Source: a virus | DNA length: 64,000 nt | IMG/VR virus record: IMGVR_UViG_3300050343_000182 | Reading direction: 5' to 3' (one strand) | Part shown: in pieces, positions 778 to 31,273 of the stretch | Layout of the letters: every line of letters begins with the position of its first letter | Numbering within the stretch: the first letter of the stretch is position 1 | Translations under genes and position numbers: made by a program | Notes under the pieces: model-generated | Database searches by the model: none | What the model saw: the letters and a program-made list of their open reading frames with translations, nothing else | What the model was told of the DNA's origin: nothing

Positions 778-784
778 CGACACC

Positions 785-853: not shown

Positions 854-893
854 ACCTACAAAAGTAACTATCCGAGATCTCTATATTAATCAA

Positions 894-16000: not shown

Positions 16001-19000
16001 CTTGATCAGGAGCAACGTATCTACCTTTGCGGTTATACCGATACTAACTCTGTTGATCCCGATGACATGTGGATCATCCAGTGTGGTATTGAAGGCGATC
16101 TGGTTGAGAAGCGTAAGGTTGCATCTCAGGATGATTCTGAGAAAATGCATCAGATCATGATGATCTCCGATGATAGATTCTTCTTTATTGGTGTTAATGA
16201 TCAAAATGATGACTTGATCTTCGGTGAATTCTTCTACGATGGTGCAAACCTTGAGATGGATTGGATCAAGCAGATTCCTACGGTGGGTGGACGTGTTGTC
16301 AACCCAACAATGGTCATGGATGACTATGGTGCAATTATTGTTGCTTGGGATATCTTCAACTCTGCAGCATCTAAGTATGATAAGATCCAGATCAACAAGT
16401 TCCTACTTTCCACTGCACAAACTGAGTGGGACTGGAGTAAGACTGTTACTACCGCTGGTGATTTCCTGGGAATGCATCATGCAGGTATCTCATATGATCA
16501 GTGGGGTAACTACACTCTAGTTTCTGATGTAACTGAAGCACAGAATCAGAGATATTCAGTTATCACTTATATGAAGTATGACGGGACTCTGCTGCATCAA
16601 ACAAAGGTTGATGATACTACAAACATTGGTTTCCAAGCAACTACTCATGCCCTGGATAACTCTGGTGATACTATTCTTGCTGTCAACCGTCAGCAATCTG
16701 ATCAGCTTGCCTCTTGGAGAATGGGCAACAGTGCAAATCCTGTAGAGGATACAACCAAGCAACAACTTGGCACTTACAACTACTTCAGTCAGTCTGATAT
16801 TACTCATGATGCTGCTGTTTACAAGTTTGACGGCGGATCTCTGAAGTTTAACGACGTTGCACCTATTACTATTGCTGATTTGGGTCTGACCCCTCTTGAG
16901 TGGAGTGGCAGAATGTGGATGTCCATGAATACGACAGCATGGAACACTGCACATGAGCCCACATTACTGCATTTTAACGATGCAACTAATACCAACTCAA
17001 TTACTGCAACTATCAAAGGTGATAACACTGATCCTGACTATCAGAAGGTTATCCTTTACTTGAATGGCACTCAGGTTGCTTCTTCTGTTGCTGCAACTAA
17101 CTGGGATGCCTTTGCTGCTGCAGCATGGGTCCATATTACTGTCCAGAAGCGTCAAGAATCTCTGGGTCTGTATCGTTATGAGGTATTCGTTGGCGGTAAC
17201 CAGCAGATCAGTTATCAGAGCACTACTGATGTTGCTCTTGATGATGTTGTTATCTGTGGTCCTGTCAGTTCTCCAACAGTTGCAAATAGTTTCCGTGGTA
17301 ACATCGATGACTTTGTGCTCGATGATGCTGCTCCATATTCTGGCACTTCTTATACTGTGCCCACTTCTGAGATTGCAATCACTACGTCCAACTCTGACGT
17401 TGCACTGATCAAGTTTGATAGAGCACATACTCAGCGTGCAGCATACACTCTGACTGGTCTTAGCAATTACAGTAATATTGCATTCACCGATCACACTATC
17501 GGTATGACTTGGACGAGTGTTTCTCCAGGTGCAATTTCTACATGGTTAGAGGGTCCTGGTGGTCTGCAAATTCTGGACATGTCCCAGACTTTCTCCACGT
17601 TGATCCCTGGTACATATACACTATCTTCAGCGTATGACCAGTATGCATCCAAGACTTCTACCATCCCATCACCTCGTGGTAAGAGATTAATTATCTCTGC
17701 TGATGTTATCCCCAAATTCTATCTGAGGGATGCTCTATATCAGAAAATTGATAACGTCCAAGAATTTACGTTTACCCAACCACTTAAACTTACTCAGTAT
17801 TCTATACTGCAACAGTTTAACAACGTTGGCACTACGACTGCCTTTGCAACTATTACAGAGGTTCCTGCAGGTAGTCTGAGGAATCCTGGTATTGGCACCA
17901 AGTATAGAGTTGGTAAGATCTTTGGCACATTTAATAATACTGATAGATTCCGCACTACAACTCTTGGTGGAGATATCAACCAGATTGAAGGCACTTACTT
18001 CGATACTATTGAAGAGGAATCTCCTTGGGTAGCATCAACTGCATATGCACAAGGTGATCGTGTCTACAACCAAAAGAGAATCTATGAAGCACAGGGTGCT
18101 GGCACATCTGGCACAATTTCACCTCAGCACAACACTGGTGTTGTTACTGATGGTGTCATTAACTGGGCATTCATCGACGACGCAGGTAAATTTACTCTTG
18201 ATCTGACTGAGCACCCCTTCCCCAGACCTCAATATACTGGTCTGGATATGCCTGAATGGTTGCCACATCGTCTATACGCTGTTGGTCAGCGTGTGTGGTA
18301 TAAACTCAACGTTTATCAGGTTGCTGTTGGTGGCGGTGGTGTTACTACACCCACTCCTCCCACACATACTACTGGTGATGTATCTGATGGTAGTGTTACT
18401 TGGTCCTTCGTTGAAACTAACGAGGCAATCAGTCAGTACACCCGTTTGATGCCTTATGATCAAGGTAACAACTATAGTATTGAGATCTTAGAAGTCCAAC
18501 CTGGATCAAACTTCATTCCTAATGACGTTGTTAGTGTCAACACCAACAATATTACGTTGGCAGAAGATGAGAAGTCTGTAGAGATCTCTGGTTTTGCATC
18601 TGTTAAGAAGATTCGTGTTACTGCACGTCTTGAGAAAGATATTCTTCTTGCTAGCAGCGTTAGAACTGATAAAGTCTATTGCACATCCAATTCCCCACAC
18701 TTCTATAAGGAAGGCGAGATTATCTTTGCTGAAGGATTCTCTGGTGCTCAATATAACGGATCATTCTTCATCGATGATGTTATTGGATCTAGAGAATTCA
18801 CATTTGGTATTAGAGACACCGCAGTGTCCGATCCAACGTTTGTAAACAATGGAATTGCAAACGTCAACATCTATGCTAAGCATCCTACTCTGATTTTCAC
18901 TAGAAATCACCAGTATAACTTCGAGCTTAGCGATCCTTCCAACTTCGGTTACTATCTGTCATTCTCTCAGGACAACCAGTATAAACTGGAGTATTCCTTC

Positions 19001-22000
19001 AACAATACTGTTAGAGAGGGCACTCCTGGTATCCAAGGTGCAGGTGCAAGCACACCATTCGTTAAATTCTTGGTGCTTGGTGATGTTACTAACATCTCTT
19101 ACTACTTTGACCCATCAAGGACTGGATCTAACTCCCCAGTTGGAGAAAACTCATACATTGATGTTATCACAACTCCATATCAAGGTAGATTCAGAATTAG
19201 TGAGATTGTAAGTGATACTGAATTCAAATTCCCACTCAACAGAGAACCTGAGCGTAATAATGCTGAGATTGGATCTGATGATCAAGGAAATGAGTATTCA
19301 TACTACTCCACGACATCTACCAGAGCAGTTGGTCCTATTAATACGATCAAACTTGTTTCTCCTGGTGGATTCTATAAGAAACTGCCTATCATCTCCGATA
19401 TTGCATCCTTCCGTCAAATTGAGAAGGTTGAGGTTATTGATGGCGGCACAGAATACGCACCTGGCGTCTACTACGACGTTCCTGTTAATGGAGACGGCGA
19501 AGGCGGTAAAGTTACCGTCACAGTCCTTCTAGATGATGAAACTGGGTCTGGTGCAATCTCTAGTGTCGCTGTTGCAGACCCAGGTAAAGGTTATACCGTT
19601 GCTAGTGTTGATATTGACGCTATCACTGGTATTCTTGGTCCCACACTGTCTGGATCTGGTGGTGCTGTCAGCGTTAACATTCCTAGCGAAGGTACTGGTG
19701 CATCTGTCTTCCTGACAGGTAGAAACATTGGTAAGATCAAGAGACTTAAGAATAATGAGTTTGGTTTCGGATATTCCCATGATTATACCCTGAAACCTGA
19801 AATTACCTTCCCTGTTAACCTTCAACTCTTCAATACTTCGATTCTTTCCGAAATCAAGATCACAGATCCTGGTGCTGGTTATACATCGACTCCTGCAGTT
19901 GTTATTGACGGTGGCGGTGGTACAGGTGCAGATGCAGTCGCAGTTATCAAGAATAACCGACTCAATGAGATCATCATCAAGAATCCTGGTGCTGGATACT
20001 CATCTGAGCCTGTTGTGACTCTGAAGTCTGAGTTTAACTATGTTGTTAACCTCGACCTCAACTATCTGCAGTTTAACTTCCCTCACGGTATCACAACTGG
20101 TGCAGAAATCCAATTCCGCTCTGAAGATGTTGGTAGCACTGAAGGCATCCTTCCCAAACCATCCAGTGCAGGTTTGACTGCATTGATTGCTGGTCAGGTC
20201 TATTATGCAATCGCTGGTCAGGCAAACTCACTAGAATCCGACCAAATCCGCTTTGGATTGACTCTACAGTCAGCACAAGCAGGTGATTACATTACATTCC
20301 TGACTCAAGGTAGTGGTCGTCAAGTATTGCTTACCGAAGTCTTCGGTGGTAAAGCAGAAGCAGTTGTTGCAACATCTCGCTTCCTTGAAGGCGAAGAAGT
20401 CTTCCAAGGTAGTGCAATTGAGCTTGCAAGTGCAACTGGTAAGGTTTCTACTAATACTGGTTGGCAAATCGGTCCTAAGATCCTCAAGATCGTCGATTAT
20501 GACGGAGATTGGAAAATGGGCGAAAAAGTCACTGGATCCATCTCCAAAGCATCTGGTGTTATCGATAACATGAGTATTGCTCGTGGTGTGTTGAATATCG
20601 GATCTTTGACTAAGACTCCTGGTAAGTTTATCGATAACGTCGGCAAACCTTCCGAAATTGTCCAAAAGATTCAAGATTCCTTCTTCTATCAGAACTTCTC
20701 TTATGTTATCAAGTCTGAGATTCCCATCACAAAATGGAAGACTCAAATCCTTGAAAACAATCACCCTGCTGGATTCCAACTGTTTGGACAGTTGCAATTG
20801 GTCGGTGGTAAGGATGTTTCGGGTAGAAAGGTCGGTACTGAGTTTACGAAGGAAGTTAACATCAATAACTACTCCAACGTCAACCAGATCACATCTTTCG
20901 GTGCAGCACAACCAATTTACACCGATTACAACAATACTGAAGTCCTCTTCCGTAAAAAGCGTCTGACTTCCTCTGAGGAAATCTTGACCTCTATCGTGAA
21001 GAAACTTGACGACATTTCACCTCAGTTTAACGGTATTGATAAGCAATTCCCAATTACTGTAGAAGGTGAGCAGGTTATCGTCCAACAGAATCAGTTGCTG
21101 ATTACTATTAACGGTGTGATTCAGGCACCTGGCGTTTCCTATACTATTGTTGGTGGACAAATTGTATTTGGCGAGCCACCAAAACCAGCGTCTAGAGTCA
21201 ACTACAGATCTCTGGAGATTACTCCTACCGTAATTTACAGAATTGAATTGTATTCTGGTCAGGCAGGTCCACCAAACTTCGGCATCTTCCCAACTCTGGG
21301 TCAGCAAGTCCAAGGTAAAGATAGCGACGTTGTTGCTACTATTATCGACTCTGGCACGACTCATATCGACGTTATCAACTTGGTTGGTGGATCATTCAAC
21401 TTGAATGAAGAGATCACTCGTGGCACCCTCTTCTCGGCACTTGTCCAGAGTGTTACTGCTATTAATAGCGATACTATCTTCCAGTTTGGTGAATCTATCA
21501 CTAACCTTGAAGGTGACACTGCTATTATCGAAGAAACTAATATTGATGGAGATGGTAATGTCACTGATGCTATCGTGGTTAGTAAGACCTCAGGTACTGC
21601 ACAGTTTGAAACTGGTATCTTTGATCTAAGACTTAATGAGTTTGTTTACTCAGCATCATCTAAGATTGCTGGTCAGATTACATTCATCTCTCCTTATATT
21701 GATCCTGCCACCCAGGATGCTGTTGATGAGTTGATTATCAACCCAGGATCTACATTCTACGGTCTGCTGTTTGAGCGTCTGGTTAGTATTACTAATCCTA
21801 ACGTTATCATCGATAACATTTCACAATCTTCTATTACACCTACTGAGCTTTACGATTCTAGTAGCAGAATCAATGCTGACTTCCTTGACTTTGAAGAAGT
21901 TAGAAATACTGAAGTCCAGTATACTCAGTTGGCAGGTGGCAACTTCTCTGAAGGCGATATTGTCATTAACAATAGAGCAAACTACGGCAACCCAAGCTCT

Positions 22001-25000
22001 GTCTTCCATGGTGTTGCTACCAACAGATTCAAAGATGCCTCGGCAATGATCCTTGGTAACAAAGATCAAATCATTGATTTTGCTGAAGCAGAAATTGCTG
22101 TCAAGCACCCCAGATTCTACTTCCCTGGTGATATCATTACCAACTCCTGGAGTAGGTATTCTGACGCATATCGTTTGATCCAGAAAAATAAATCATACAT
22201 TGCTAATAAGGCATACGATGAGATGATGACGCAATATACGTCACTCACCGTTCCTGATCCTAATAAGTGCATCCGTGACCTTGAGTTGTATATCGATGCT
22301 ATCTCCATTGACATTTTCCGTGGTGGTAATGTCTATACTCGTAAACTTTGTGCCAAGTATTTTGATGTAGATGGCAACTTTGTGTATGTCAACAATGAGT
22401 CTGCTGAGACTCGTTATGGATTTGAAAAAGCAAAAGACATGATGAAGTTGGCAATCGTCAACAATCTGACTAATAGTTTCACTGTGCCAAGTGGTCAACC
22501 TAATCAAGGTATCACTTACGTTCCTTGGAGCGAGGTAGATCATGGTGGTTATGATGGCAACGGTATCACTGCTGACCCATCACCTAACGATCCTTATGGC
22601 ACTAACGGTGCTAACCAGTCTAACAATGGCACTGACAACTGCAGCGATGTCCAAGCAGCAATCACCACTCTCTATGATGTGGTTGATGAGACTCTGCTGA
22701 ATGGCACGCTGGTTGACCTCCCTGATGAGTCGAAAGGCACCTATTCTCCTGGTCAAATCAAGTGTCGTCGTGACATCGGTCTGATGATCGATGCCTTGGC
22801 AGAAGACGTTTCTCAGGGTGGTAACTACAACATCATCGAATTCACTAAGAAGTATTTCGATGCTGCTGGAGCACCTATTGCTAACGGTCTAATCGGTGAG
22901 TATGCAGAATCTCTGACTGCTATCGATAAGGCAATGCACTTGTCCTTCCAGGCAATCAACAACCTCCTCTATTATCAAGTCAATTCCAGGACTTCTGTCA
23001 CTGGATTCATGCTGAAAGATCCTACAACATATCAAGGATCCTACAGCGGTGGTGAAGATGACCTGCAAGAATTCGATGTGTCTGCTGCAGTCTACACACC
23101 TTCAAATGGTCAAATGGTTCTTACCATTGGCACTCACTCACTGACAACTTCGGATACTGTTACGATCCGTCCACACTCTCTGAAGTTTACTTGTGATTCG
23201 GATAACGATGCATCCTTCCACGACTATCCTCGTGCTGGAGATCCTGCATTCAACACTCCTCTTGCTATTAGTGCTGAGACTGGCACTACAATCACAGTCA
23301 ACGTTGGCGCATCTCCTCTGGTCCAATTCACACCAACTGCTGCTACCTACAATCCAGCAACGGGTGATATGGTATTGACTATTGGATCCCACAGTCTTGA
23401 AATCAATGACTATGTGACTATTGCTAACGATTCGTTGGTATTCACATGTGATATGGATGCTAATGGCACCACTCACACATATCCTAGATCTACTGACCCT
23501 GCATCTGGCAAGCGTCTGTTTATCCATGGTGCTGATGCAACCACCATTACGGTTAACGTTGCAGCATCTCCTGCTGATCAGCAGTATGCTCACACATTCG
23601 TTTCTGCTTCTGCCAATTCAGTCAGTAGTGGCGGTGGATATACACATACATTCGTCAAGGGACTGGATAATGCAGTCTTCACTGGCGGTGGCACAACTGC
23701 CAAGTATTTCGACCCTAATTACTACTCAGGCCGAAATGAAACAATCCAGAATTGTGCTAACGTCCAGGCATATATCGCTACGCTCGTAGACATCTCTACG
23801 ACTGCGATTGCAGCACAAAATCTCAATAATATTAACGCTCTCGCAAGCATCACTGATGGCACCTTCGTTGCTGGTGAAAACATCCGCACCACGAAGATTG
23901 CATATAAGGATCGTGCGGGTGGTTTGTTTATCGTTGGCGACACCATTACTGGTATTACTAGCGGTGCCCAATTTGAAGCAATTGGATCTAACTCTGGTTT
24001 GAAGTGGATCTTTGCTGACGCTGTTACTGGATCATTCCAGGATGGTGAGTATATTACCAACTCCACCACTGCTAACCAAAACGGTGTTTCTCTAAGTGTT
24101 ATCGAGAAATACAAGAGACTTAGCGGTAAGAAGTCTATCAAATTCCCATCTACTGGATATTTGGTCACTAAAGATAGTTACGACTTCTCCTTCGGCAATA
24201 CTGCAGACTTTACTGTCCAAGGTTGGTTTAGAGCAGATAACCTGAGCACAACTCAGCATCTGTTTGACTTCCGTCGTCTGTCTGCTACCGCTGGTTTGAG
24301 AATTACTCTGCAGACTTCTGGTGCAATCACTGTCTACAACGGCACATCTCAACTGCTGACTGGTGGCACGCTGCTTGCTAATAACTGGCATCACGTTGCA
24401 GTTGTCAGGACTACTAGCGTCTTACAACTCTATGTTGATGGCGTGCAGGTTGGTGGCAACTACGCTGATACCAACGATTATGGTTATGCTGCTATCTACG
24501 TCGGCGCTGACTTCAACGCTGCCAATCAGTTTACTGGTTACATGGACAACGTGGTTGTTAAGAATGGAGAGTCCGACTTCAACACTGGATTCGTGCCTCC
24601 TACTCAGATCGACTACTCTAACCAGTATGTGAAGTTTGGTCTTGACGGTGAGCAACCATTCGTCATGGATAATCAGGAAACATATGCTATCTACACTGGT
24701 CAGCGTATCTCCTCTGCTGCTATCAAGGAACTTAACTACGATCAAAACTTTGCAATCATTGAAAACGTTGATCTTGGTAGATCAGATCACAGAAACTGTG
24801 CTGATATTATCGATCTTAACGCTGCCTGGATTGCTGAAGAAGCAGTCGGTAGAATGGAAGCAGCATTCCCTGATTTTGTCATCCCAGGCAACAACGTGGC
24901 CGAAGGTAGTTATGGTGGCACCAACAAGTGTATCAGGGATACTAAAGACTACATCATCGGCGCTCTTGTCAAGGACTTGAGAGACGGTGGTAACTACAAC

Positions 25001-28000
25001 TCACTATACACCGCTCGTACTTACCTCGAAGCATCAGGCAAACTGAAGCACGTTGGTAACGAGATTCTACAAACTCTGTATGCATGGGATCAGGCATTCG
25101 TCCTTTGTAAGTATGTAATTACTACAACTGACACAACTCTGACTGGCACCTATACAAACAGATTGAGACTTCCCAACAACTTCGCAACTCCTGCATCTCA
25201 ATCCATCCAAGATGAGTTTGATACTCTGGGTCGTGAAGTGCTAGAAGTCCTTGCACCTAATCCTGATATTTTCAGAGACACTGGTGTCTTGGTCTGGAAA
25301 AACCGCGACTATATCGCAGAAGAAGTTGCTGGATACATCCTTAATAAGTATGAGATTGACCTCAATGGCACGCTCACACAGTTCTTGGAAATGCCTGGTT
25401 ATGGTCAACCATACTGCGAGAGGGATGTTAAGCAATTCATTCTCCCTGCTGTGATTGCTGACCTTTGCACGGGTGGCACATACAATGTGGAAGCAGTCAT
25501 TGATAATTATCTGGATGATCAAAACAACATCCTTCATGTTGAGCATGAGTTGAATCCAATGCTTGATGCATTCCATCATGCCAAGTATCTCACACAGAAA
25601 GCAGGTAACAACTTGCTCCTTTCTCCTGGAGAAGTTTCTGGAGATCTTGGTATCCCAGCATGGGCACAAGATGATTACCATACACCTCTGTATACTTCCC
25701 GTGGTGCATTTAGAGATGATACCATCATTATCGATGATGAAGGATATCCTCAGGATAACGTTTCTAACTGGAATCGTTATAAGGATGCTACCAATGCTAT
25801 CGCGGCAAACATTGATCTGATTGCACATGAGGCAGTCGAGACAATGAATGACATGTCCAAGTATGCCCTATTCCAAATCAAGGGTGGTCCTGTTAACTGT
25901 AGTGATGACGTTAAGGATATCCTTAAGGCTCTTGTCCATGACCTCAACTACAACTGTAATGAAAGAACATGGGATGCTGCAAATCTCTACGTTGAGCCAG
26001 AGAATAATTCTCTGAAGCACATCGAAGACGATTGGGAAGCAACTGTCTCCGTCATGAAAATTGTTAAGGATATTGCAACCATAACCATGAGAAATGGTTT
26101 CGGTAGAGATTATATCCCTGGCAACGATCCTAATAACGTTGATCCTTCTACATACGAGGCAAATCCCAAAGAGCAAATCTTTGCTGATTGTGCCGATGCT
26201 ATTGATGCAAACATTCGTTGGATTGCTGAGCAAGCAGTTAAGGCAGGTCAGACACAGTATCCTTCACTGAGTATTAACGGTGGAATTTACGGTGGTCAGC
26301 AATACACTCCATCGGATGCAACTTACATTGCATCAAGTGGTGAGATGGTCATTACCATGGCAGGTCATGGTTTGGTTACAGGTAACAGAGTTACCGTTAG
26401 ACCTGATTCTATTGGATTTACATGCACACTTGATGGTAACAACGTTACCAACTACTATCCCCGTAAAGGTGACCCTGCATACACCACATCTAGATTAATT
26501 ACTGCACATACCACTGATACGATTACGATCAACGTTGGTGCATCTCCTGCAGGTGAGCAATATACTCATACCTTTGTCAATGCACATGAAGGTGCTGTTG
26601 TTTCTAACGGTAGCATCGATTGCGTCCATGACGTGACTGACATCCTCAGAGCACTGGTCTTCAACCTCAAGTACGATGGAGACAACTGGATCAACTGGGT
26701 ATCTGAGTTCTATACAACATACAGTGGATCTCTCGCACACGTTACATCTCTGGCAACAGAGGTAAATTGGATTCTGGAAGAAGCGAAGAGGCTTGTGAAG
26801 CGTGCAATGCGTGGTCAAATTATTACTAACGTTGCATCATACAGCGGTGGCGTCCAGGCATTCTCCGAGGCAGTCCCCAAACCTACTACGGTGCTCCGCA
26901 ATTCATTGGTTGATGAGGGTATCACTCTTGGTGGAGATTACAATAACGTCGTTACTCGCACATTTACCAACGGCACAAACAACATTGCAAGTGGATCTGC
27001 TTCTGCAACTGGTATTACCAATGACGAAGATCTGGTTTGTAGTTGTGTAACCGTGCTTCCTGCTGGCACACCTAGCGATGGCGTCCTCTGGGAGCTTGGT
27101 GGAAACGGTGCTGGTGCATTCATTGGTATCAGAGACAGCGGCACATACCTCCGTCTCCGTGCTGGTAATGGTGCTAACTCCTATGCAGGTGGTGCATCTA
27201 CTGCTAGCGACAACGGTCTTGCACTCCTTGATGTCCAAGTCTCTACTCTCTCAGATTACTTCGATGGTGGTGAGCATGAGATCACTTGGGAAATTAGAGT
27301 TGGCGGCACAGTTGCTTCTGGATCTGGTCGTGTCAAACTCTGGATTGACGGCAACCTTATTGGTGAAGCTTCAACTCCTGGACTAAACACTGGTCTTTAT
27401 GAGGCAGGTGGATTGCTGGCAGGGGGATCTACTGGTGGTTTTGCCACAATGTCTTCTGACAGCACCGTCCCACAAGGAGAGCCTACAGCATCATGGGCAT
27501 ACACAACAGGTGATATGTCATACTACAGATCACGTCTGGTCGATCCTATCTACACAGGTAGTGAGTCTGATAATGTTGCAACCGAAGTTGATACTCTAAT
27601 GCAACTGGTCACAGATGCAATTAGCAATCCTGCTGATGTTACAAACCGCGTTAGCATCCTACCTAAGATCTGGCCTATTAAATATACGCCTGATATTGCG
27701 GTTAGGGACACTGGTCTTACCTACGACTCCTCTGCTGCTGAGTGGAATCAGACTTGTGCTGAAGTTGCTTCTGCTATCGATACACTTCTTGAGATTTACA
27801 TCGATACAATTGAAAACGCAGCAAACAACAACACAAATCAGTTGGATTCCATCGTTAGGACAACTAGACTTGACGCTTACACAAATAGCAACTATCAGCA
27901 AGGTACATGTGAAGGACCACAATCCGCGATCGACACCTTGTTTGACATCATGGTTGATACTCTTGGCGCTGGATTAAATACCGACAAATCTATCGCTAAC

Positions 28001-31000
28001 ATGCTGCTCTTTAACAAAGATGCTATCGCACAGAGAGCGTTTGATGAAACTGTGACTTACTATGGCACCACTGAAATGACAGTGGACTTCTGTGCTGACA
28101 TCCTCAAGGCAGTCAGATATGACATGATCACTGGCGGTAACGCAGGTGCATTTAGACTGGTCCAAAACTGGTTTGACGGTGAAGGGAACTTCATTGCATT
28201 CCAGGATATAGCTCGCACACACTTGATCTATGCAAACACTCGCGTGCGTGAGTATATCAAGTCTGTGTTGTATCAGTTGACTGAAGATCCTGGTTGGACA
28301 ACCTACAATACCTATCAGTTAGGTATCGATGGTCGTTTGGATTACAACCGTGAGGCATCTGAATTTATCATTGACTCCTCTATCAATGCCATTGAGTATT
28401 CATTAGAGACATCTAAATTCCCAACAGAAGGTAGCGTTACTTGGGTCCCAAGTAGCGATGCAGTTAACATCAACACCAAGTATGAATTGGGTTATGACTA
28501 TAACACTGATCCTGCTCTGGTTACTCTTACTCCTATCGTCCCCGTTGGTTTCGACCGCGCTGAATATAGAGTCAGAATTAACCGCGTTAACTCCTTCCGT
28601 CGTGGTGACATCCTACAGTATATCCCAGCATCTGAGACTTCAGTCGCAGCATTTACTGGTCAGACGTACTGGTATGTGATGACTGCCACTGCACAGTGGT
28701 TTGAAGTTGGTGCTCACTACATGCACGATGGTAGATTTAGAAGAATTGAAGTTAACACTGCCAACACTGGTCAGCAGATCTTCTCCGTCGTCAGACGTAC
28801 TGGTATCGATAGGTCTGCTTCTCTCTTCCCAGCAGATCCTTCACAGACTCCTATCCAGGGTGGATTCAACCCCGCAGATGTTATCTACGGCACCACGTCT
28901 GAATCTTCATCTGAAGTTGGTAGCATCTCGCTCAACCAAGCAGAGATTAACAGACTCTATACTCGTTATAATCTGAATAACGTAAGTCAGAATCTGGGTG
29001 TTTATGAAAACTTCCAGAACGGTGAGCAAATCACAGTCCAATCAAATCCTGCTGTTTCTGGCATAATTCTCCAGTCTGATAGGACCGATAACGACGGTCT
29101 CAACTTCGTCAATCTAACTACTGTCGCGGGTGTGATCAACGTAGGCGATATCTTGGTTGGTGCTGATAGTGGCACGACTGCCGAAGTTACCTCCTTCGAT
29201 TCTCGCATGTTGATTAACGTTGAGAGAGGATCATTCGCACAGGGCGACTGGTTGTTTGACAAGGCATCTGCTACTGAGGCATACGCTAACACATATCTCA
29301 ATAAGTCTGGATCTCTTACAGGTAATGACGGTGGTCGTATTACGATTGACGTTGAAACCATCGGAGATGCATGGGATGCTGGCGATATCATCTACGGTAG
29401 CGTCACTGACTACATCCTCGAAATTAAGGGTCTCTCTGGCACACAGATTCAACTTAACCAGTATATCCACGGCACCAACATCTATCAGTTGGAGCTTGGC
29501 ACTGCAATCGTTGACACTGGCATTTCCGATACATTCCGTGTTGGTGATGAGGTCGTCCTCCTGCAAGGCACCACACTGAAGGATCCTGGGTTCCGTGCAA
29601 CGGTAACTGAATATATCAATGGCATCAACGCAGATCCTGCTGATCCAAACTATGGCATCCATCGCTTGTTTATCGGTAACTTGATTCCTATAGGCACGGG
29701 TGAAGATATCACTGCTCTTACCATTGGATCTAATAACATCGGTAAACTTGATCTTGGATCTAACTTCCCAAGCATCTACGCTAACGTTACCTCGGTCATA
29801 GACACTACATATAACTCCTACGGGCGCGTGGCTGCTATTGACCAGCAGGGTATCACAGCAACCGTCTGGTTGGAAAATGTCAAGGGTGACTTCCTTAACA
29901 ATATGACCGTCGTCTCCGACTATGGTTGGGGTGGTGTGGTTGCTAAGGCACGCACGCTTGAGGGTCGCGTTGATCGTTACTTCCGTGGTTTCGACGGTAG
30001 TCAGACACAGTTTGATCTCACGATCAGCAATGGTGAAGCATACTTCCCAGATCCCGCTGGTCACATGCTCATCTTCGTCAATGGCATCCTACAACCTCCT
30101 GGTGGTAACAACTCCTACGTTGCATTCTCAGACAAGATTAACTTCTCTGAGGCACCTGACATTGGATCTGAATTCGTTGGTTACTACGTTGGTAAACTCC
30201 GTCAGATGGACGATATCAGCTTCGAGTTTGACTCCTTGCGCTCGTCCTTCAACCTCAGACGTGAAGGTCTCTTCTACTCGCTGACTCTGACTGAAGGTGT
30301 TTCTTCTAACGTGATTCGCCCAGAAAACAACATCATCGTTTCACTCAACGGTATTATTCAAGAACCTGGCGTCGCATACGAGATCGTCGGATCTAGAATC
30401 ATCTTTGCTGAAGTGCCTCGCGCAGGATCAACCTTTGTTGGATTCTCCTACATTGGATCTGATACTGACGTGATCGCTGCAACCGTTGTGCCACCTGTGG
30501 AAGCAGGTGACAAACTTGAGATTGATGGTGAGGAATTCGCTCGTGACGTTGCTCTGATCGAATCTTCAAACTCCTTGATCACCTTTGAATACACAGGATC
30601 TGTTAAGGGACGTAACGCTGCTGCATTGGCAACAATCCGCTCTGGTCAGTTGAATAGTGCAATCCTCACCAACTCTGGCGATGGTTACACCTCACGCCCC
30701 AACGTGGACGTGATTTCATCCTCAGGTTTCGATGGTCGTATCAAGGCACTCATGGGTATCACACGCATTGACGTGAAGACCCCTGGTGTTTCTTATCTAC
30801 AACCATTAGTTGAGATTGACAATATTGTCCCAGACGACTTTGTTAATCCTTCAGGCACGCCTGTCAACGGTGGTAGAGATATCTACAACGCTGATGAGGC
30901 AATTGATGGCGACACCACTACGATTACTCCTGGCGCGATTGCGATCTCTCAGGATCCTGTAAACGTAACGGTTAACCAAGGTCAGACTGCATCCTTCACG

Positions 31001-31273
31001 GTTGCTGCTACTGTCTCCAACAGTCAGCAACTCAACTACCAGTGGCAGAAGAAGGAATACGGCACTCAGACCTGGAGTAACATCATCGGTGCTAACCAGT
31101 CAACATTCAATACCAACGATGCTGCTCAGGCAGACGATGGTGATGAATACAGAGTTGCAATTACTGCTGCAGGTGCTACACCTGTTTACTCACTGTCTGC
31201 TATCCTCACGGTCCAGACTGGTGCTACTGTGATTAGTAACTTCACTCCAGATCAAATCTTCGACGACATCTAA
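10055..31273 (+). CDS. g7: giant baseplate wedge initiator gp7 (7072 aa), multi-domain
   Basis: N-terminus ISDRVANQLPEFIREEDQQFVDFLLQYY; position between g6 and g8; GSGY repeats, YHYH-like, beta-propeller-like, LamG-like, CBM-like, phycobiliprotein-like and Ig-like segments. Confidence 0.85.
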   Translation: MPHKNINISDRVANQLPEFIREEDQQFVDFLLQYYKSQEKTGRPYDILNNLLGYLDLDSYTSDELSNDTLLLSDIGLNDKTIRIEAIDGFKATDGSIKIDNEVIYYENVTRGPDAIVTPGVSPAQFDKKKQQLENPFQLFDGTRNKFPLNFLGTPVNPPSVDHLIVVVYNEMLVPGTDYFLEGDEIRFAVAPRERSGADDSAFTEIIYLVGYADQTIVTTDAVPFEEYQSKKEYPLRVNTQPYTPTSAIGLIVKKNNRQLEPYTDYTVYGSEIIFRFPLGGADNIHIRSVEYIAPNFGSGASAVVSVDNFGQVDRLIPKTGGSGYRLDFAPKVVVQHSEGVGATAKTLVSGIKNINLIDGGQGYTSYNPPIALVGAPTGGTLAKVALTVDDVTGQVDSLTIMNSGSGYDFIPAISFANPGGCKIGQPTIDSEGRVNIDSIAVEEFGLNYSNPPIVYLDPAPEGGINAQAISRINQDGQVYEIVITNRGRGYATPPRARIIQPIGAQVLDVTVASGNVTNIEMLTGGNGYTDAPSVYIVDDRKDPYGDPIGGTGATAAATIFNGQITDINITNFGSGYSETEPPKIYIAEPKSARASVAVGFNELTGYEIIERGSGYSPSAFLGCSRGVSGAVGYDNLHNEIYAGEATLRQSTHPAASTVINLDSLFIREVFDKFRRQYLPTIEIDYSSINPIQVIKSITDFYISKGTELSTQYLFKIMFGEQVEIYYPRDEIISPSAATWVVDTVLRAELISGDPGNLIDSQLIQYADPVDLSVKAANALIENVITIIEGKDTIYELAISEETLSGSFIIPYKTTLVEPLTTTGQIITVDSTIGWPERNGTIRINDVETAQYKEKSLNQFIECTRSQNGVVEDWDPGTIVYSDIFVYVNKGTSTECKLRVLGIAEAGTTILEDTGSYYLQGDKLKVAKLGSSSEDERLSSWLYNVKKLIQVNTVTPGGVNNQTATVVCDNPHGLLVSDQVTIYGANPVVFNGTFTVTSRIDTLQFTYQINTPTEIIPEGNILLSVDLNRGKSDINSINSVVSEFTTNIQNSFFNADYVYVASSGLPNYKVGPFTGSALIPGNQRKLLRFPRLVQTISERQDISANTSIGAWVNGVSIWAYKSGDFVRFGPLTGITVSNTGQDYDAGSKPALEITGGGGTGATGEVVVNGSLTSFDVTEQGSGYTESPLVSIVGGGGIGATAQAIVTGGRVTRILVEQPGTGYTSQPSVSVTGGGGTGALAKANVRGPIQSVSITANGSGYTELPSIRVNSGEGALAQPIVINGRIVSIAIINSGSGYTTAPTIIINGDGFGAIARAVIGTIGEDKGRVLSVEITNRGIGYTQGLTTVRLESVGDFAEFTPQVFEWNKNLQYDLATNYDGARGYVFTGRNNQFGGEYAHLSDPKELRYVVGDNVFLNAVTQQFQEVESNYEHSPILGWAYDGNPIYGPYGYIDPTDQNSGIRRLRTSYKLKDNVVYDLATNPNPARVDGPELSSYPAGSFVADYEYDFQSGDLDNYNGRFCKTPQYPDGTYAYFITIDASEAGIAEFPYILGPQFNSLPDPWNFTQGATQENIPQDVVRYRDPYVNVDIDVDRQPNQEADVLTTEIEGYPLIFEIQDSNNDGIIDANEQQEVLEMSEEATLQIYDYFPQVSEESRVDIEVETTTQFEDAQIDGFVIENPGVSYQVNDTIFFDDGDTGGFGASAFIESVKGQSIQSYSKEIIGDRPYGVINTSANHDLRQQDELILNSSPVIDNTNKNFKVKVVSGIERINVTQGGVGYNEDIPPTFELITSAGQDGQLEIVLQNTGQISSVNIINSGNGYDPENPPQIRVSHPQQFKKTRYWLTEYMEADGIINVNDIKVTSQRNTYICGKITETDGDESAFLAKFDDLGQKIWERTLIPTNANQKRAEFLKMVVNAAPENDLIYVTGQTKNPDNDTYNPDIWLGLYESGFNNANDPDGILQWQRAIAGISGSTRRDFVTSIALDQEQRIYLCGYTDTNSVDPDDMWIIQCGIEGDLVEKRKVASQDDSEKMHQIMMISDDRFFFIGVNDQNDDLIFGEFFYDGANLEMDWIKQIPTVGGRVVNPTMVMDDYGAIIVAWDIFNSAASKYDKIQINKFLLSTAQTEWDWSKTVTTAGDFLGMHHAGISYDQWGNYTLVSDVTEAQNQRYSVITYMKYDGTLLHQTKVDDTTNIGFQATTHALDNSGDTILAVNRQQSDQLASWRMGNSANPVEDTTKQQLGTYNYFSQSDITHDAAVYKFDGGSLKFNDVAPITIADLGLTPLEWSGRMWMSMNTTAWNTAHEPTLLHFNDATNTNSITATIKGDNTDPDYQKVILYLNGTQVASSVAATNWDAFAAAAWVHITVQKRQESLGLYRYEVFVGGNQQISYQSTTDVALDDVVICGPVSSPTVANSFRGNIDDFVLDDAAPYSGTSYTVPTSEIAITTSNSDVALIKFDRAHTQRAAYTLTGLSNYSNIAFTDHTIGMTWTSVSPGAISTWLEGPGGLQILDMSQTFSTLIPGTYTLSSAYDQYASKTSTIPSPRGKRLIISADVIPKFYLRDALYQKIDNVQEFTFTQPLKLTQYSILQQFNNVGTTTAFATITEVPAGSLRNPGIGTKYRVGKIFGTFNNTDRFRTTTLGGDINQIEGTYFDTIEEESPWVASTAYAQGDRVYNQKRIYEAQGAGTSGTISPQHNTGVVTDGVINWAFIDDAGKFTLDLTEHPFPRPQYTGLDMPEWLPHRLYAVGQRVWYKLNVYQVAVGGGGVTTPTPPTHTTGDVSDGSVTWSFVETNEAISQYTRLMPYDQGNNYSIEILEVQPGSNFIPNDVVSVNTNNITLAEDEKSVEISGFASVKKIRVTARLEKDILLASSVRTDKVYCTSNSPHFYKEGEIIFAEGFSGAQYNGSFFIDDVIGSREFTFGIRDTAVSDPTFVNNGIANVNIYAKHPTLIFTRNHQYNFELSDPSNFGYYLSFSQDNQYKLEYSFNNTVREGTPGIQGAGASTPFVKFLVLGDVTNISYYFDPSRTGSNSPVGENSYIDVITTPYQGRFRISEIVSDTEFKFPLNREPERNNAEIGSDDQGNEYSYYSTTSTRAVGPINTIKLVSPGGFYKKLPIISDIASFRQIEKVEVIDGGTEYAPGVYYDVPVNGDGEGGKVTVTVLLDDETGSGAISSVAVADPGKGYTVASVDIDAITGILGPTLSGSGGAVSVNIPSEGTGASVFLTGRNIGKIKRLKNNEFGFGYSHDYTLKPEITFPVNLQLFNTSILSEIKITDPGAGYTSTPAVVIDGGGGTGADAVAVIKNNRLNEIIIKNPGAGYSSEPVVTLKSEFNYVVNLDLNYLQFNFPHGITTGAEIQFRSEDVGSTEGILPKPSSAGLTALIAGQVYYAIAGQANSLESDQIRFGLTLQSAQAGDYITFLTQGSGRQVLLTEVFGGKAEAVVATSRFLEGEEVFQGSAIELASATGKVSTNTGWQIGPKILKIVDYDGDWKMGEKVTGSISKASGVIDNMSIARGVLNIGSLTKTPGKFIDNVGKPSEIVQKIQDSFFYQNFSYVIKSEIPITKWKTQILENNHPAGFQLFGQLQLVGGKDVSGRKVGTEFTKEVNINNYSNVNQITSFGAAQPIYTDYNNTEVLFRKKRLTSSEEILTSIVKKLDDISPQFNGIDKQFPITVEGEQVIVQQNQLLITINGVIQAPGVSYTIVGGQIVFGEPPKPASRVNYRSLEITPTVIYRIELYSGQAGPPNFGIFPTLGQQVQGKDSDVVATIIDSGTTHIDVINLVGGSFNLNEEITRGTLFSALVQSVTAINSDTIFQFGESITNLEGDTAIIEETNIDGDGNVTDAIVVSKTSGTAQFETGIFDLRLNEFVYSASSKIAGQITFISPYIDPATQDAVDELIINPGSTFYGLLFERLVSITNPNVIIDNISQSSITPTELYDSSSRINADFLDFEEVRNTEVQYTQLAGGNFSEGDIVINNRANYGNPSSVFHGVATNRFKDASAMILGNKDQIIDFAEAEIAVKHPRFYFPGDIITNSWSRYSDAYRLIQKNKSYIANKAYDEMMTQYTSLTVPDPNKCIRDLELYIDAISIDIFRGGNVYTRKLCAKYFDVDGNFVYVNNESAETRYGFEKAKDMMKLAIVNNLTNSFTVPSGQPNQGITYVPWSEVDHGGYDGNGITADPSPNDPYGTNGANQSNNGTDNCSDVQAAITTLYDVVDETLLNGTLVDLPDESKGTYSPGQIKCRRDIGLMIDALAEDVSQGGNYNIIEFTKKYFDAAGAPIANGLIGEYAESLTAIDKAMHLSFQAINNLLYYQVNSRTSVTGFMLKDPTTYQGSYSGGEDDLQEFDVSAAVYTPSNGQMVLTIGTHSLTTSDTVTIRPHSLKFTCDSDNDASFHDYPRAGDPAFNTPLAISAETGTTITVNVGASPLVQFTPTAATYNPATGDMVLTIGSHSLEINDYVTIANDSLVFTCDMDANGTTHTYPRSTDPASGKRLFIHGADATTITVNVAASPADQQYAHTFVSASANSVSSGGGYTHTFVKGLDNAVFTGGGTTAKYFDPNYYSGRNETIQNCANVQAYIATLVDISTTAIAAQNLNNINALASITDGTFVAGENIRTTKIAYKDRAGGLFIVGDTITGITSGAQFEAIGSNSGLKWIFADAVTGSFQDGEYITNSTTANQNGVSLSVIEKYKRLSGKKSIKFPSTGYLVTKDSYDFSFGNTADFTVQGWFRADNLSTTQHLFDFRRLSATAGLRITLQTSGAITVYNGTSQLLTGGTLLANNWHHVAVVRTTSVLQLYVDGVQVGGNYADTNDYGYAAIYVGADFNAANQFTGYMDNVVVKNGESDFNTGFVPPTQIDYSNQYVKFGLDGEQPFVMDNQETYAIYTGQRISSAAIKELNYDQNFAIIENVDLGRSDHRNCADIIDLNAAWIAEEAVGRMEAAFPDFVIPGNNVAEGSYGGTNKCIRDTKDYIIGALVKDLRDGGNYNSLYTARTYLEASGKLKHVGNEILQTLYAWDQAFVLCKYVITTTDTTLTGTYTNRLRLPNNFATPASQSIQDEFDTLGREVLEVLAPNPDIFRDTGVLVWKNRDYIAEEVAGYILNKYEIDLNGTLTQFLEMPGYGQPYCERDVKQFILPAVIADLCTGGTYNVEAVIDNYLDDQNNILHVEHELNPMLDAFHHAKYLTQKAGNNLLLSPGEVSGDLGIPAWAQDDYHTPLYTSRGAFRDDTIIIDDEGYPQDNVSNWNRYKDATNAIAANIDLIAHEAVETMNDMSKYALFQIKGGPVNCSDDVKDILKALVHDLNYNCNERTWDAANLYVEPENNSLKHIEDDWEATVSVMKIVKDIATITMRNGFGRDYIPGNDPNNVDPSTYEANPKEQIFADCADAIDANIRWIAEQAVKAGQTQYPSLSINGGIYGGQQYTPSDATYIASSGEMVITMAGHGLVTGNRVTVRPDSIGFTCTLDGNNVTNYYPRKGDPAYTTSRLITAHTTDTITINVGASPAGEQYTHTFVNAHEGAVVSNGSIDCVHDVTDILRALVFNLKYDGDNWINWVSEFYTTYSGSLAHVTSLATEVNWILEEAKRLVKRAMRGQIITNVASYSGGVQAFSEAVPKPTTVLRNSLVDEGITLGGDYNNVVTRTFTNGTNNIASGSASATGITNDEDLVCSCVTVLPAGTPSDGVLWELGGNGAGAFIGIRDSGTYLRLRAGNGANSYAGGASTASDNGLALLDVQVSTLSDYFDGGEHEITWEIRVGGTVASGSGRVKLWIDGNLIGEASTPGLNTGLYEAGGLLAGGSTGGFATMSSDSTVPQGEPTASWAYTTGDMSYYRSRLVDPIYTGSESDNVATEVDTLMQLVTDAISNPADVTNRVSILPKIWPIKYTPDIAVRDTGLTYDSSAAEWNQTCAEVASAIDTLLEIYIDTIENAANNNTNQLDSIVRTTRLDAYTNSNYQQGTCEGPQSAIDTLFDIMVDTLGAGLNTDKSIANMLLFNKDAIAQRAFDETVTYYGTTEMTVDFCADILKAVRYDMITGGNAGAFRLVQNWFDGEGNFIAFQDIARTHLIYANTRVREYIKSVLYQLTEDPGWTTYNTYQLGIDGRLDYNREASEFIIDSSINAIEYSLETSKFPTEGSVTWVPSSDAVNINTKYELGYDYNTDPALVTLTPIVPVGFDRAEYRVRINRVNSFRRGDILQYIPASETSVAAFTGQTYWYVMTATAQWFEVGAHYMHDGRFRRIEVNTANTGQQIFSVVRRTGIDRSASLFPADPSQTPIQGGFNPADVIYGTTSESSSEVGSISLNQAEINRLYTRYNLNNVSQNLGVYENFQNGEQITVQSNPAVSGIILQSDRTDNDGLNFVNLTTVAGVINVGDILVGADSGTTAEVTSFDSRMLINVERGSFAQGDWLFDKASATEAYANTYLNKSGSLTGNDGGRITIDVETIGDAWDAGDIIYGSVTDYILEIKGLSGTQIQLNQYIHGTNIYQLELGTAIVDTGISDTFRVGDEVVLLQGTTLKDPGFRATVTEYINGINADPADPNYGIHRLFIGNLIPIGTGEDITALTIGSNNIGKLDLGSNFPSIYANVTSVIDTTYNSYGRVAAIDQQGITATVWLENVKGDFLNNMTVVSDYGWGGVVAKARTLEGRVDRYFRGFDGSQTQFDLTISNGEAYFPDPAGHMLIFVNGILQPPGGNNSYVAFSDKINFSEAPDIGSEFVGYYVGKLRQMDDISFEFDSLRSSFNLRREGLFYSLTLTEGVSSNVIRPENNIIVSLNGIIQEPGVAYEIVGSRIIFAEVPRAGSTFVGFSYIGSDTDVIAATVVPPVEAGDKLEIDGEEFARDVALIESSNSLITFEYTGSVKGRNAAALATIRSGQLNSAILTNSGDGYTSRPNVDVISSSGFDGRIKALMGITRIDVKTPGVSYLQPLVEIDNIVPDDFVNPSGTPVNGGRDIYNADEAIDGDTTTITPGAIAISQDPVNVTVNQGQTASFTVAATVSNSQQLNYQWQKKEYGTQTWSNIIGANQSTFNTNDAAQADDGDEYRVAITAAGATPVYSLSAILTVQTGATVISNFTPDQIFDDI
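22022..28410 (+). repeat. about 7 phycobiliprotein-like (globin-fold) helical repeats inside gp7
   Basis: Recurrent DAxxxIxxNxxxIxxxA, KCxRDx(14-15)GG and CxxVxxAIxTL motifs; C84-like Cys codons at 22268, 22763, 24929, 25415, 25898, 26621. Confidence 0.7.

What the first reader, a model, noticed from the sequence alone, without database searches (positions are those of the whole stretch)
22637..27910. beta-155-like cysteines in gp7 as a candidate substrate for the cyanophage CpeT lyase
Seen: closing-helix motifs NCSDVQAAITTL (Cys 22640), NCANVQAYIATL (23753), TCAEVASAIDTL (27755) and TCEGPQSAIDTL (27908) align with GDCSALASEIASY, the second bilin site of beta subunits. Established: T-type lyases (CpcT/CpeT) attach bilins at this beta-153/155-type Cys and S-type lyases at Cys84. 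T4-like cyanophages often encode cpeT plus ho1/pebS/pcyA, usually read as host-antenna remodelling. Inference: the phage bilin pathway may instead, or also, pigment its own baseplate. No cpeT, ho1 or pebS gene is in this window, so the link is untested.
Basis: inference. Interest (0 to 1): 0.75.

Follow-up and report, generated by a model that had tools for sequence, protein, structure and literature searches.

The report
Second pigment-site cysteines in cyanophage baseplate
Four conserved cysteines in the giant baseplate protein of this cyanobacterial virus sit where the host's light-harvesting beta subunits attach their second pigment, so the virus's puzzling pigment-attaching enzyme CpeT may act on the virus particle itself, which is untested.

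Summary
The four motifs exist at the stated codons (Cys 4196, 4567, 5901, 5952 of a 7072-aa protein in the gp7 position). They are invariant in 19-26 relatives down to 47% identity.

- **What they are.** Each cysteine caps the last helix (H) of a phycobiliprotein (PBP)-fold domain. The structure match (Z 17.8 and 15.9) and the profile alignment both place Cys4196 on beta-Cys153/155. The register of the structure match places Cys5901 on phycoerythrin (PE) beta-Cys158. The partner Asp39, specific to the beta subunits that carry this bilin, is also kept.
- **Nesting.** The domains are nested, so a closing helix can lie about 555 residues after its domain opens.
- **The CpeT link is plausible but unproven.** cpeT is not in the window, and the full genome was not available.
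  - The window groups with four isolates in a gp6 tree, and all four carry cpeT.
  - Among 23 isolates: 19 have cpeT and the repeats, 1 has repeats only, 3 have neither, and none has cpeT only. The four cpeT-less phages form one clade, so this is roughly one evolutionary event.
  - In S-PM2, Syn1 and S-CAM1, cpeT lies just upstream of a giant PBP-repeat protein.
  - P-HM1 keeps cpeT although its host's only PBP lacks this site.
- **Bilin-synthesis genes** do not track the repeats.
- **Earlier scan notes.** This scan had already noted PBP-like domains in at least 11 other cyanophage genomes. I found no paper describing them.

The parts
10055..31273 (+). Giant 7072-aa baseplate protein in the gp7 position. 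It follows the gp6 homologue at 7815-10049.
   Evidence: ORF list and translation. Same gene order (gp25, gp6, giant protein, then gp10- and gp8-like genes) in P-TIM40 and S-WAM1. Weak Pfam Baseplate_wedge hit, plus YHYH, Laminin_G_3 and Phycobilisome hits.
22115..22720 (+). PBP-fold domain 1 (aa 4021-4222): helices B, E, F and G, a long G-H loop and helix H. The Cys84-type motif KCIRD has its Cys at 22268.
   Evidence: PF00502 hit at 29.2 bits against a cut-off of 22.2. AF2 model plus VIA-align gives Z 17.8 to PBP beta chains. hhalign to CpcB.
22640..22642 (+). Cys4196, the beta-153/155-equivalent cysteine at the N-cap of helix H of domain 1.
   Evidence: Invariant in 26 relatives.
22748..23032 (+). 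Domain 2 core (aa 4232-4326; helices E-G). KCRRD Cys at 22763.
   Evidence: HMM hit at E 5.5e-12. Helices in the model.
23039..23644 (+). Two beta-strand insert domains (aa 4329-4530) inside the G-H loop of domain 2.
   Evidence: Internal repeats. Beta strands in the model. Their number varies among relatives.
23753..23815 (+). Cys4567 and the helix H that closes domain 2 (aa 4567-4587).
   Evidence: HMM aligns aa 4517-4592 to positions 119-197 of domain 1 at E 1e-4. The helix starts right after the Cys in the model. Invariant.
24785..25264 (+). Domain 3 (aa 4911-5070). It has a Cys on helix B (4915, nt 24797) and KCIRD (Cys at nt 24929). Its closing helix carries Ser in place of Cys.
   Evidence: The Ser comes from reading the sequence by eye.
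25268..25615 (+). Opening part of domain 4 (aa 5072-5187). YCERD Cys at 25415.
25745..26113 (+). Opening part of domain 5 (aa 5231-5353). NCSDD Cys at 25898.
   Evidence: VIA-align range 177..861.
26165..26854 (+). Domain 6: helix B with Cys5379 (nt 26189), a beta insert, then helices E-G (DCVHD Cys at 26621).
26894..27541 (+). Laminin-G/ConA-like domain nested in the G-H loop of domain 6.
   Evidence: VIA-align Z about 12 to laminin G and CBM40 domains, model residues 570-780.
27569..27625 (+). Closing helix of domain 6 (aa 5839-5857). It has no Cys here (Ser), but relatives L020 and L022 have a Cys at this place.
27755..27829 (+). Cys5901 and the helix H that closes domain 5, about 555 residues after that domain opens.
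   Evidence: VIA-align Z 15-16, model 177/179..861 on beta 29/33..177. Invariant in 19 relatives.
27908..27964 (+). Cys5952 and the helix H assigned to domain 4.
   Evidence: HMM alignment at E 0.025. Helix 896-911 in the model. Invariant. The assignment to domain 4 follows from nesting and was not seen directly.
27977..28270 (+). Domain 7 (aa 5975-6072). Its Cys84-type Cys 6013 (nt 28091) is not conserved.

Best explanation
Shown. Residues about 4020-6100 of the gp7-position baseplate protein hold seven phycobiliprotein (PBP)-fold domains, several nested inside the G-H loop of another. The four cysteines sit at the N-cap of the closing helix H of domains 1, 2, 5 and (by nesting) 4. Two of them (4196, 5901) are mapped onto the position where PC/PE beta subunits bind their second bilin (Cys153/155/158); the other two are placed there by weaker evidence. 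The Asp39 partner and the Cys84-Arg86-Asp87 triad of the first site are kept as well.

Inferred. During infection a T-type lyase hands a host- or phage-made bilin (PEB or PCB) to these cysteines. The lyase would be the phage's own CpeT where present, otherwise a host CpcT/CpeT/RpcT. A thioether forms before baseplate assembly, so the virion carries a few dozen bilins. These could act as a light sensor, for example for the light-dependent adsorption known in S-PM2 and P-HM1/P-HM2.

My odds. That these are the beta-155-equivalent positions of true PBP-fold domains: about 0.9. That they carry bilin in vivo: about 0.4. That the phage CpeT is the enzyme: about 0.3.
For: Fold and register.

Selective conservation of bilin-contacting residues over 139 domain hits in 21 phages:
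- Cys84-equivalent 82 of 89.
- Asp87-equivalent 83 of 89.
- Asp39-equivalent 56 of 63.
- Cys155-equivalent 17 of 17 contiguous complete domains where that column aligned (3 more were gapped there).

Asp39 is found only in the beta subunits that carry the 155 bilin. CpcB, CpeB and MpeB have Asp, ApcA/B have Arg, and CpcA/CpeA have Glu.

In domains 1 and 3-6 the helix-B start and the helix-H N-cap together carry exactly one Cys; domain 2 has no helix B of its own and carries its Cys on helix H. In domain 6 that Cys sits on helix B in the window's lineage and on helix H in L020/L022.

By tblastn, the repeat occurs only in cyanophages among 50,697 phage records.

cpeT links: present in the four isolates that group with the window; no phage has cpeT without repeats; gene neighbourhood in S-PM2, Syn1 and S-CAM1.

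MED4's only PBP has only the Cys82 site (10.1101/2020.03.31.018853). Yet the MED4 phage P-HM1 has cpeT and a gp7 domain with GCADVKSAINTL.

Light-dependent adsorption of P-HM1/P-HM2 and S-PM2 is unexplained and independent of host photosynthesis. P-SSM2 adsorbs in the dark (PMC6628666) and has no repeats.
Against: - No pigment has been reported on cyanophage virions, and nothing here tests binding.
- The Arg86-equivalent is kept in only 43 of 89 domains. Some domains have lost one or both Cys (P-TIM40 domain 1, the window's domain 7, L032 domain 6).
- In real PBPs the 155 pocket is partly completed by neighbouring subunits, and the X-Y hairpin needed for alpha-beta pairing has no counterpart here.
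- DSL-LC03 keeps the Cys without cpeT.
- The co-occurrence is about one evolutionary event.
- Bilin reductase and heme oxygenase genes do not follow the repeats, and P-SSM2 and S-SSM7 have both genes without repeats.
- Sequence similarity to PBPs is weak (E 0.13-1 against PDB). Helical folds give high Z scores easily.
- I could not read model coordinates, so a disulfide partner cannot be excluded.
Confidence: 0.4

Rival explanations
1. Domesticated scaffold without pigment. A host beta-type phycobiliprotein gene was captured long ago and multiplied as a rigid helical spacer for fibre and baseplate proteins. The cysteines and acidic residues persist for reasons unrelated to bilins, such as inter-domain disulfides in an extracellular particle, metal binding or helix capping. 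Phage CpeT acts on host antenna proteins or merely holds bilins.
For: - The domains serve as insertion platforms for beta and laminin-G domains in a structural protein.
- Arg86-equivalent is lost in half of the domains.
- No X-Y hairpin aligned at low rmsd.
- DSL-LC03 has the Cys without cpeT.
- Virion proteins commonly conserve cysteines.
- The Cys relocation in domain 6 would also fit a disulfide partner that must stay nearby.
Against: - The conserved set is exactly the chromophore-contacting residues of both sites, including the beta-specific Asp39.
- As far as I know, in solved PBPs the Cys84 and Cys155 sites of one domain are far apart. No other conserved Cys is available within a domain.
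- The restriction to cyanophages is not expected for a generic spacer.
- P-HM1's cpeT has no host substrate site in MED4.
Confidence: 0.38
2. Pigmented, but not through phage CpeT or not at these cysteines. Bilin is attached at the Cys84-type sites (autocatalytically or by host S-type lyases) and/or at the 155-type sites by host T-type lyases. Phage CpeT serves host antenna remodelling, as usually assumed.
For: - The Cys84-type site is the most conserved feature (82 of 89).
- DSL-LC03 has repeats without cpeT.
- As far as I know, marine Synechococcus hosts carry their own T-type lyases.
- Cluster C cyanophages carry an S-type lyase instead (PMC10665884).
Against: - No phage in the sample has cpeT without the repeats.
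- cpeT is adjacent to a PBP-repeat gene in three phages.
- MED4 has no 155-type site for P-HM1's CpeT.
Confidence: 0.17
3. Chance resemblance. The helices merely look like the beta-155 region, and the domains are unrelated helical bundles.
For: - Single-sequence and profile searches against PDB sequences are not significant (E 0.13 or worse).
- Helical models often reach Z of about 13-14.
Against: - The Pfam hit is above the gathering score.
- 13 of 14 weak PDB hits are phycocyanin or phycoerythrocyanin alpha chains.
- An HMM of all phage repeats scores true PBPs at 18-28 bits.
- Z 17.8 and 15.9, with the top 50 and the top 11 chains all PBP beta chains or close relatives, and rmsd about 2 A over about 135 residues.
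- Three key positions coincide in one alignment.
Confidence: 0.03

Closest known systems
Phycobiliprotein beta subunits with two bilin sites (CpcB/RpcB, CpeB, MpeB, cryptophyte beta chains; Pfam PF00502)
   Same: - Globin-like PBP fold from helix B to helix H.
- Cys84-Arg86-Asp87 motif.
- Long G-H loop followed by a Cys at the N-cap of helix H.
- Asp39 on helix B.
   Different: - Embedded many times in a 7072-aa virion protein.
- Domains nested within each other's G-H loops, with beta and laminin-G inserts.
- No X-Y hairpin.
- Only 15-20% identity.
- Pigment binding unknown.
- In two domains the pocket Cys is on helix B instead of helix H.
T-type bilin lyases CpcT/CpeT and cyanophage PhiCpeT (PF06206; Gasper et al. 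2017, J Biol Chem 292:3089, not readable here)
   Same: The known target of T-type lyases is the beta-153/155 cysteine, the position these four residues occupy. Phage cpeT occurs in most T4-like cyanophages that have the repeats.
   Different: No lyase gene lies in this window. The substrate relation to a virion protein has never been tested. The accepted reading is remodelling of the host antenna.
T4 gp7 baseplate wedge protein and the giant gp7-fused proteins of P-SSM2 and P-SSM4 (Sullivan et al. 2005, PMC1079782)
   Same: Gene position after gp6, a weak Baseplate_wedge Pfam signal near the N-terminus, and very large size.
   Different: T4 gp7 has no PBP-fold domains. P-SSM2's genome shows none either.
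ApcE (the phycobilisome core-membrane linker)
   Same: A PBP-fold domain that is part of a large multidomain protein and has a loop insertion (from my own knowledge; not tested here).
   Different: ApcE has one PBP domain, binds bilin autocatalytically and sits in the phycobilisome core, not in a virus particle.

Membership tests
Phycobiliprotein superfamily (PF00502) | Match to the family HMM above the curated cut-off | tested here: met
   Domain 1 scores 29.2 bits against a cut-off of 22.2, E 1.1e-6. The same precomputed hit is on many homologues. The other domains reach it only through the phage-repeat HMM.
Phycobiliprotein superfamily (PF00502) | Globin-like PBP fold (helices B, E, F, G, H) | tested here: met
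   AF2 models (pLDDT 67-68) against PDB. Z 17.8 with rmsd 3.2 A over 149 residues, Z 17.6 with rmsd 1.9 A over 135 residues, and the top 50 chains all PBP beta chains or close relatives. Z 15.9, and rmsd 2.2 A over 134 residues, for nested domain 5.
Phycobiliprotein superfamily (PF00502) | N-terminal X-Y helical hairpin that pairs alpha with beta subunits | tested here: not met
   Low-rmsd alignments start at beta residue 24-33. Only high-rmsd rows (5-7 A) reach residues 11-17.
Phycobiliprotein superfamily (PF00502) | Covalently bound bilin | not testable with these tools
   Needs spectroscopy or mass spectrometry of virions or recombinant domains.
Two-site beta subunits (PC/PE beta type) | Cys at 153/155/158 before helix H, plus Asp39 on helix B | tested here: met
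   hhalign pairs C177 with C153 and D18 with D39. The register of the structural ranges agrees. Asp39 is beta-specific among the PBPs fetched. Met for domains 1, 2, 4 and 5, but not for the helix H of domains 3 and 6.
Substrate of a T-type lyase (CpcT/CpeT) | A T-type lyase gene in the same genome | tested here: inconclusive
   None in the window. Present in the four isolates that group with the window and in relatives G019 and G034.
Substrate of a T-type lyase (CpcT/CpeT) | Lyase-dependent bilin transfer to the cysteine | not testable with these tools
   Needs a co-expression or in vitro assay.
T4 gp7-type baseplate wedge protein | Position next to gp6 and a gp7-like N-terminal part | tested here: inconclusive
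   Synteny is met. PF23786 scores only 15.8 bits against a cut-off of 27, although a precomputed PF23786 hit is listed for this protein.

The most novel reading that the evidence does not exclude
T4-like cyanophage virions are biliproteins. Phage CpeT chromophorylates the beta-155-type cysteines of PBP-fold domains in baseplate and fibre proteins, with phage PcyA/PebS/Ho1 supplying bilin in bilin-poor Prochlorococcus hosts. The pigmented baseplate would then be the light sensor behind light-dependent adsorption and diel infection rhythms. If so, this one idea would cover three open puzzles:
- the role of phage cpeT;
- the role of bilin genes in Prochlorococcus phages;
- the light requirement for attachment.
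Probability: 0.2. Interest if true: 0.93.

Novelty: new variant of a known kind. Interest (0 to 1): 0.72.

Why it matters
The function of cpeT has been called unresolved since the first genomes, although more than 60% of T4-like cyanophages reportedly encode it (PMC3037559; PMC10665884). The bilin-synthesis genes of Prochlorococcus phages are described as a mystery. Light-dependent adsorption has no known sensor (PMC6628666).

A virion protein that keeps both bilin-attachment sites of a beta phycobiliprotein gives all three questions one concrete, cheaply testable hypothesis. The P-HM1/MED4 case makes this sharper: the phage has a T-type lyase, and its own baseplate protein carries such a site while the host's only PBP does not.

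If pigment is found, it would be, as far as I know, the first chromophore-bearing, possibly light-sensing, virus particle. If not, it is still a clear case of a host antenna protein turned into a nested structural module.

Tried and rejected
- **Own genome.** It is not held. So the cpeT, ho1, pebS and pcyA status of this phage stays unknown.
- **Megablast** of the region against phages found nothing.
- **phmmer** of repeats 1-2 against PDB sequences found nothing.
- **BLASTP self-comparison** missed the repeats; phmmer on pieces found them.
- **hhalign in global mode** gave a meaningless alignment; local mode worked.
- **Foldseek on the 601-residue model** gave no hit at E 0.001 or better. PE beta chains appeared only at rank 23 with probability 1.00. 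VIA-align resolved this.
- **A PetE look-up** meant to reach a cyanobacterial genome hit only a mis-binned phage contig. A short cpcB DNA motif worked instead.
- **Sullivan 2010 Table 3, as extracted,** marks Syn1 as lacking cpeT. The GenBank record and the HMM (E 1.5e-35) show that it has one.
- **PF06206 alone** missed the divergent CpeT of P-SSM7, S-ShM2 and S-SSM4. A phage CpeT profile found them.
- **Fisher test rejected.** The 19/1/3/0 table is not evidence of co-evolution, because the gp6 tree puts all four cpeT-less phages in one clade.
- **Non-cyanophage hits** (Pseudomonas, Dinoroseobacter and others) to the 2100-aa query disappear when only the PBP repeat is used. I therefore attribute them to other domains, but did not check which.
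- **Not run:** the search of protein representatives and the protein atlas.
- **Gasper et al. 2017** could not be read.

Full report
**1. What is there**

The finding lies inside one open reading frame, 10055-31273 (+), which encodes 7072 residues. The gene follows a gp6 homologue. In the isolates P-TIM40 and S-WAM1 the same order (gp25, gp6, giant protein, then gp10- and gp8-like genes) is annotated. So this is the giant gp7-position baseplate protein of a T4-like cyanophage.

In a gp6 tree the window groups with P-TIM40, S-WAM1, S-SZBM1 and P-RSM6 with 100/100 support.

Pfam finds YHYH, Laminin_G_3 and, above its gathering score, Phycobilisome (PF00502; aa 4037-4101, 29.2 bits against 22.2).

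**2. The observation**

The four motifs are present, with Cys codons at 22640, 23753, 27755 and 27908, which are Cys 4196, 4567, 5901 and 5952.
- A pattern covering them occurs four times in the protein and nowhere else in the six frames of the window. It occurred 0 times in 2000 shuffles. The pattern is post hoc.
- All four Cys are invariant in 26 and 19 relatives from IMG/VR at 47-97% identity.

**3. What they are**

phmmer on pieces of the protein and an HMM of repeat 1 define seven repeats. Their helix-E cysteines are at 4072, 4237, 4959, 5121, 5282, 5523 and 6013, with KCxRD in the first four. The same analysis separates out closing helices.

*First model.* An AlphaFold model of aa 4020-4620 (26-row alignment, pLDDT 68) was compared with the PDB.
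- The top 50 chains are all PBP beta chains or close relatives.
- Z is 16-18, with rmsd 1.9-3.2 A over 130-149 residues.
- Model residues 6/11..196 lie on beta 24/32..172-184.
- The model helix 178-197 starts right after Cys177 (aa 4196). With an ungapped last helix, 196 on 172 puts Cys177 on Cys153 of phycocyanin, and 196 on 177 puts it on Cys158 of phycoerythrin.

*Independent profile alignment.* I fetched 110 CpcB genes with a short DNA motif. I aligned a profile of 64 of them to the repeat-1 profile with hhalign, which gave E 1e-3 over 131 columns. It pairs:
- C53/R55/D56 with Cys82/Arg84/Asp85 (the Cys84 site);
- D18 with Asp39;
- C177 with Cys153.

*Asp39.* As far as I know, Asp39 is the acid that holds the 155 bilin. 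Among PBPs fetched from a marine Synechococcus and a Thermosynechococcus genome, CpcB, CpeB and MpeB have Asp at this position. ApcA/B have Arg, and CpcA/CpeA have Glu.

*Second model.* A model of aa 5060-6110 (pLDDT 67) gives Z 15-16 and rmsd 2.2-2.8 A over 132-134 residues.
- Model 177/179..861 lies on beta 29/33..177.
- So domain 5 opens at aa 5236-5346 and is closed by the helix that follows Cys5901 (model 842, on PE beta Cys158), about 555 residues later.
- Domain 6, a beta insert and a laminin-G domain (Z about 12) lie nested in its G-H loop.

*The other two cysteines.* For Cys4567 and Cys5952 the same role follows from three weaker lines: the HMM alignment (E 1e-4 and 0.025), helix starts in the models, and the nesting order. 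I did not see these two directly in a structural match.

**4. Conservation pattern**

Counts over 139 domain hits in giant proteins of 21 phages:

| Position | Conserved |
|---|---|
| Cys84-equivalent | 82 of 89 |
| Asp87-equivalent | 83 of 89 |
| Arg86-equivalent | 43 of 89 |
| GGN | 84-91% |
| Asp39-equivalent | 56 of 63 |
| Cys155-equivalent | 17 of 17 contiguous complete domains where the column aligned (3 more were gapped) |

In the window, domains 3 and 6 have no Cys on helix H. They have one on helix B instead, next to the Asp39 position (Cys 4915 and 5379).

In domain 6 this alternates among relatives:
- 16 sequences have the helix-B Cys only.
- L020 and L022 have the helix-H Cys only.
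- L032 has neither, and none has both.

This looks like a requirement for one Cys in this pocket. It is a single swap, and it would also fit a disulfide partner.

**5. Distribution**

tblastn with repeat 1 finds 240 phage records. All are cyanophages, apart from one unclassified marine virus.

The repeats also occur in a second giant protein of S-PM2, Syn1, S-CAM1 and others. That protein is annotated as a tail or short tail fibre protein.

**6. The CpeT question**

*In the window.* cpeT is not there.

*In relatives.* Two IMG/VR contigs (gp7 region 67% and 53% identical) carry cpeT next to gp5.

*Co-occurrence in 23 isolates.* I searched whole records with PF06206, with a phage CpeT profile and with the repeat profile.

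| cpeT | Repeats | Phages |
|---|---|---|
| yes | yes | 19 |
| no | yes | 1 (DSL-LC03, whose repeats keep the Cys) |
| no | no | 3 (S-SM2, S-SSM7, P-SSM2) |
| yes | no | 0 |

The gp6 tree puts the four cpeT-less phages in one clade with 94/98 support. The association therefore amounts to about one event and is not statistical evidence.

*Gene neighbourhood.* In S-PM2, Syn1 and S-CAM1 the order is cpeT, tRNAs, a 2OG-Fe(II) oxygenase, then the PBP-repeat giant gene. This region is also a known variable hot-spot near gp5 (PMC3037559).

*P-HM1 and MED4.* P-HM1 was isolated on Prochlorococcus MED4. MED4's only PBP, CpeB, has a single site at Cys82 (10.1101/2020.03.31.018853). Yet P-HM1 has cpeT and a gp7 domain with KCARD and GCADVKSAINTL. 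In that system the phage's own protein carries a 155-type cysteine while the host's only PBP does not.

**7. Bilin-synthesis genes**

A bilin reductase gene is present in 10 of 23 records and heme oxygenase in 4 of 23.
- They do not follow the repeats: 8 of 20 with repeats against 2 of 3 without.
- They do follow the host used for isolation. Eight of nine phages isolated on Prochlorococcus have a reductase, against two of 14 isolated on Synechococcus.
- That would make sense if a phage needed bilin in a bilin-poor host. But P-SSM2 and S-SSM7 have pebS and ho1 without repeats, so this is only a hint.

**8. Light**

P-HM1/P-HM2 do not adsorb in the dark. S-PM2's light-dependent adsorption does not need host photosynthesis. 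P-SSM2 adsorbs in the dark. The sensor is unknown (PMC6628666).

P-HM1 and S-PM2 have the repeats and P-SSM2 has none. That is three phages only, so it is an anecdote.

**9. Literature and earlier notes**

Full-text searches found no paper describing PBP-like domains in cyanophage structural proteins. The Pfam hit is, however, visible in precomputed annotations.

This scan had already noted such domains in at least 11 other genomes, including one note on cpeT lying beside such a gene. The same stretch of this genome carries two sister notes. My results agree with those notes.

**10. Verdict**

The main rival is a pigment-free domesticated scaffold, and I rate it almost as likely. Simple experiments would decide between them.

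Noticed in passing
window 24797-24799 and 26189-26191; L020/L022 homologous region: Domains 3 and 6 carry their pocket cysteine on helix B, next to the Asp39-equivalent, instead of on helix H. In relatives L020 and L022 the domain-6 Cys is back on helix H, and L032 has neither.
   Followed up: partly
L216 (Syn1), L217 (S-PM2), L228 (S-CAM1): Conserved neighbourhood of cpeT, tRNA genes, a 2OG-Fe(II) oxygenase and a giant tail protein with PBP-like repeats. In S-PM2 and Syn1 that giant protein is T4-GC 734. The oxygenase may belong to the same module.
   Followed up: partly
23 phage records: Bilin reductase genes are in eight of the nine phages isolated on Prochlorococcus but in only 2 of 14 isolated on Synechococcus. 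P-RSM6 has two reductases plus a heme oxygenase.
   Followed up: partly
window 14228-14668 (aa 1392-1538 of the giant protein): YHYH domain (PF14240, E 6e-28). The same protein also gives a beta-propeller repeat hit, a first laminin-G domain (aa about 4702-4835) and a C-terminal Ig-like region.
   Followed up: no
window 23039-23644 and 26264-26614: Three copies of a beta-strand module of about 85-100 residues (FTCD...YPR motif) are inserted in G-H or B-E loops. The copy number varies between relatives, and L019 has extra copies in the loop of domain 1. Hits of the larger query to Pseudomonas, Dinoroseobacter, Acidovorax and Paracoccus phages probably come from this module or from the laminin-G domain.
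   Followed up: no
L071 (NYWG01000069.1) and protein P0039: Cyanophage DNA is filed under bacterial bins. A contig of a 'Verrucomicrobiales' MAG encodes a PetE 70% identical to the window's. A gp7 homologue is named after a 'Flavobacteriales bacterium TMED113' MAG.
   Followed up: no
GU071105.1 (Syn1), locus L216 4222-4761: Table 3 of Sullivan et al. 2010, as extracted, shows no CpeT for Syn1. The record annotates cpeT (Syn1_028), and PF06206 matches at E 1.5e-35.
   Followed up: yes
L068 and L069 (IMG/VR contigs G034 and G019): In these relatives cpeT lies directly upstream of the gp5 baseplate hub gene, about 45 kb upstream of gp7. P-TIM40's cpeT lies a similar distance upstream of its gp7. 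This predicts where to look in the window's genome.
   Followed up: partly
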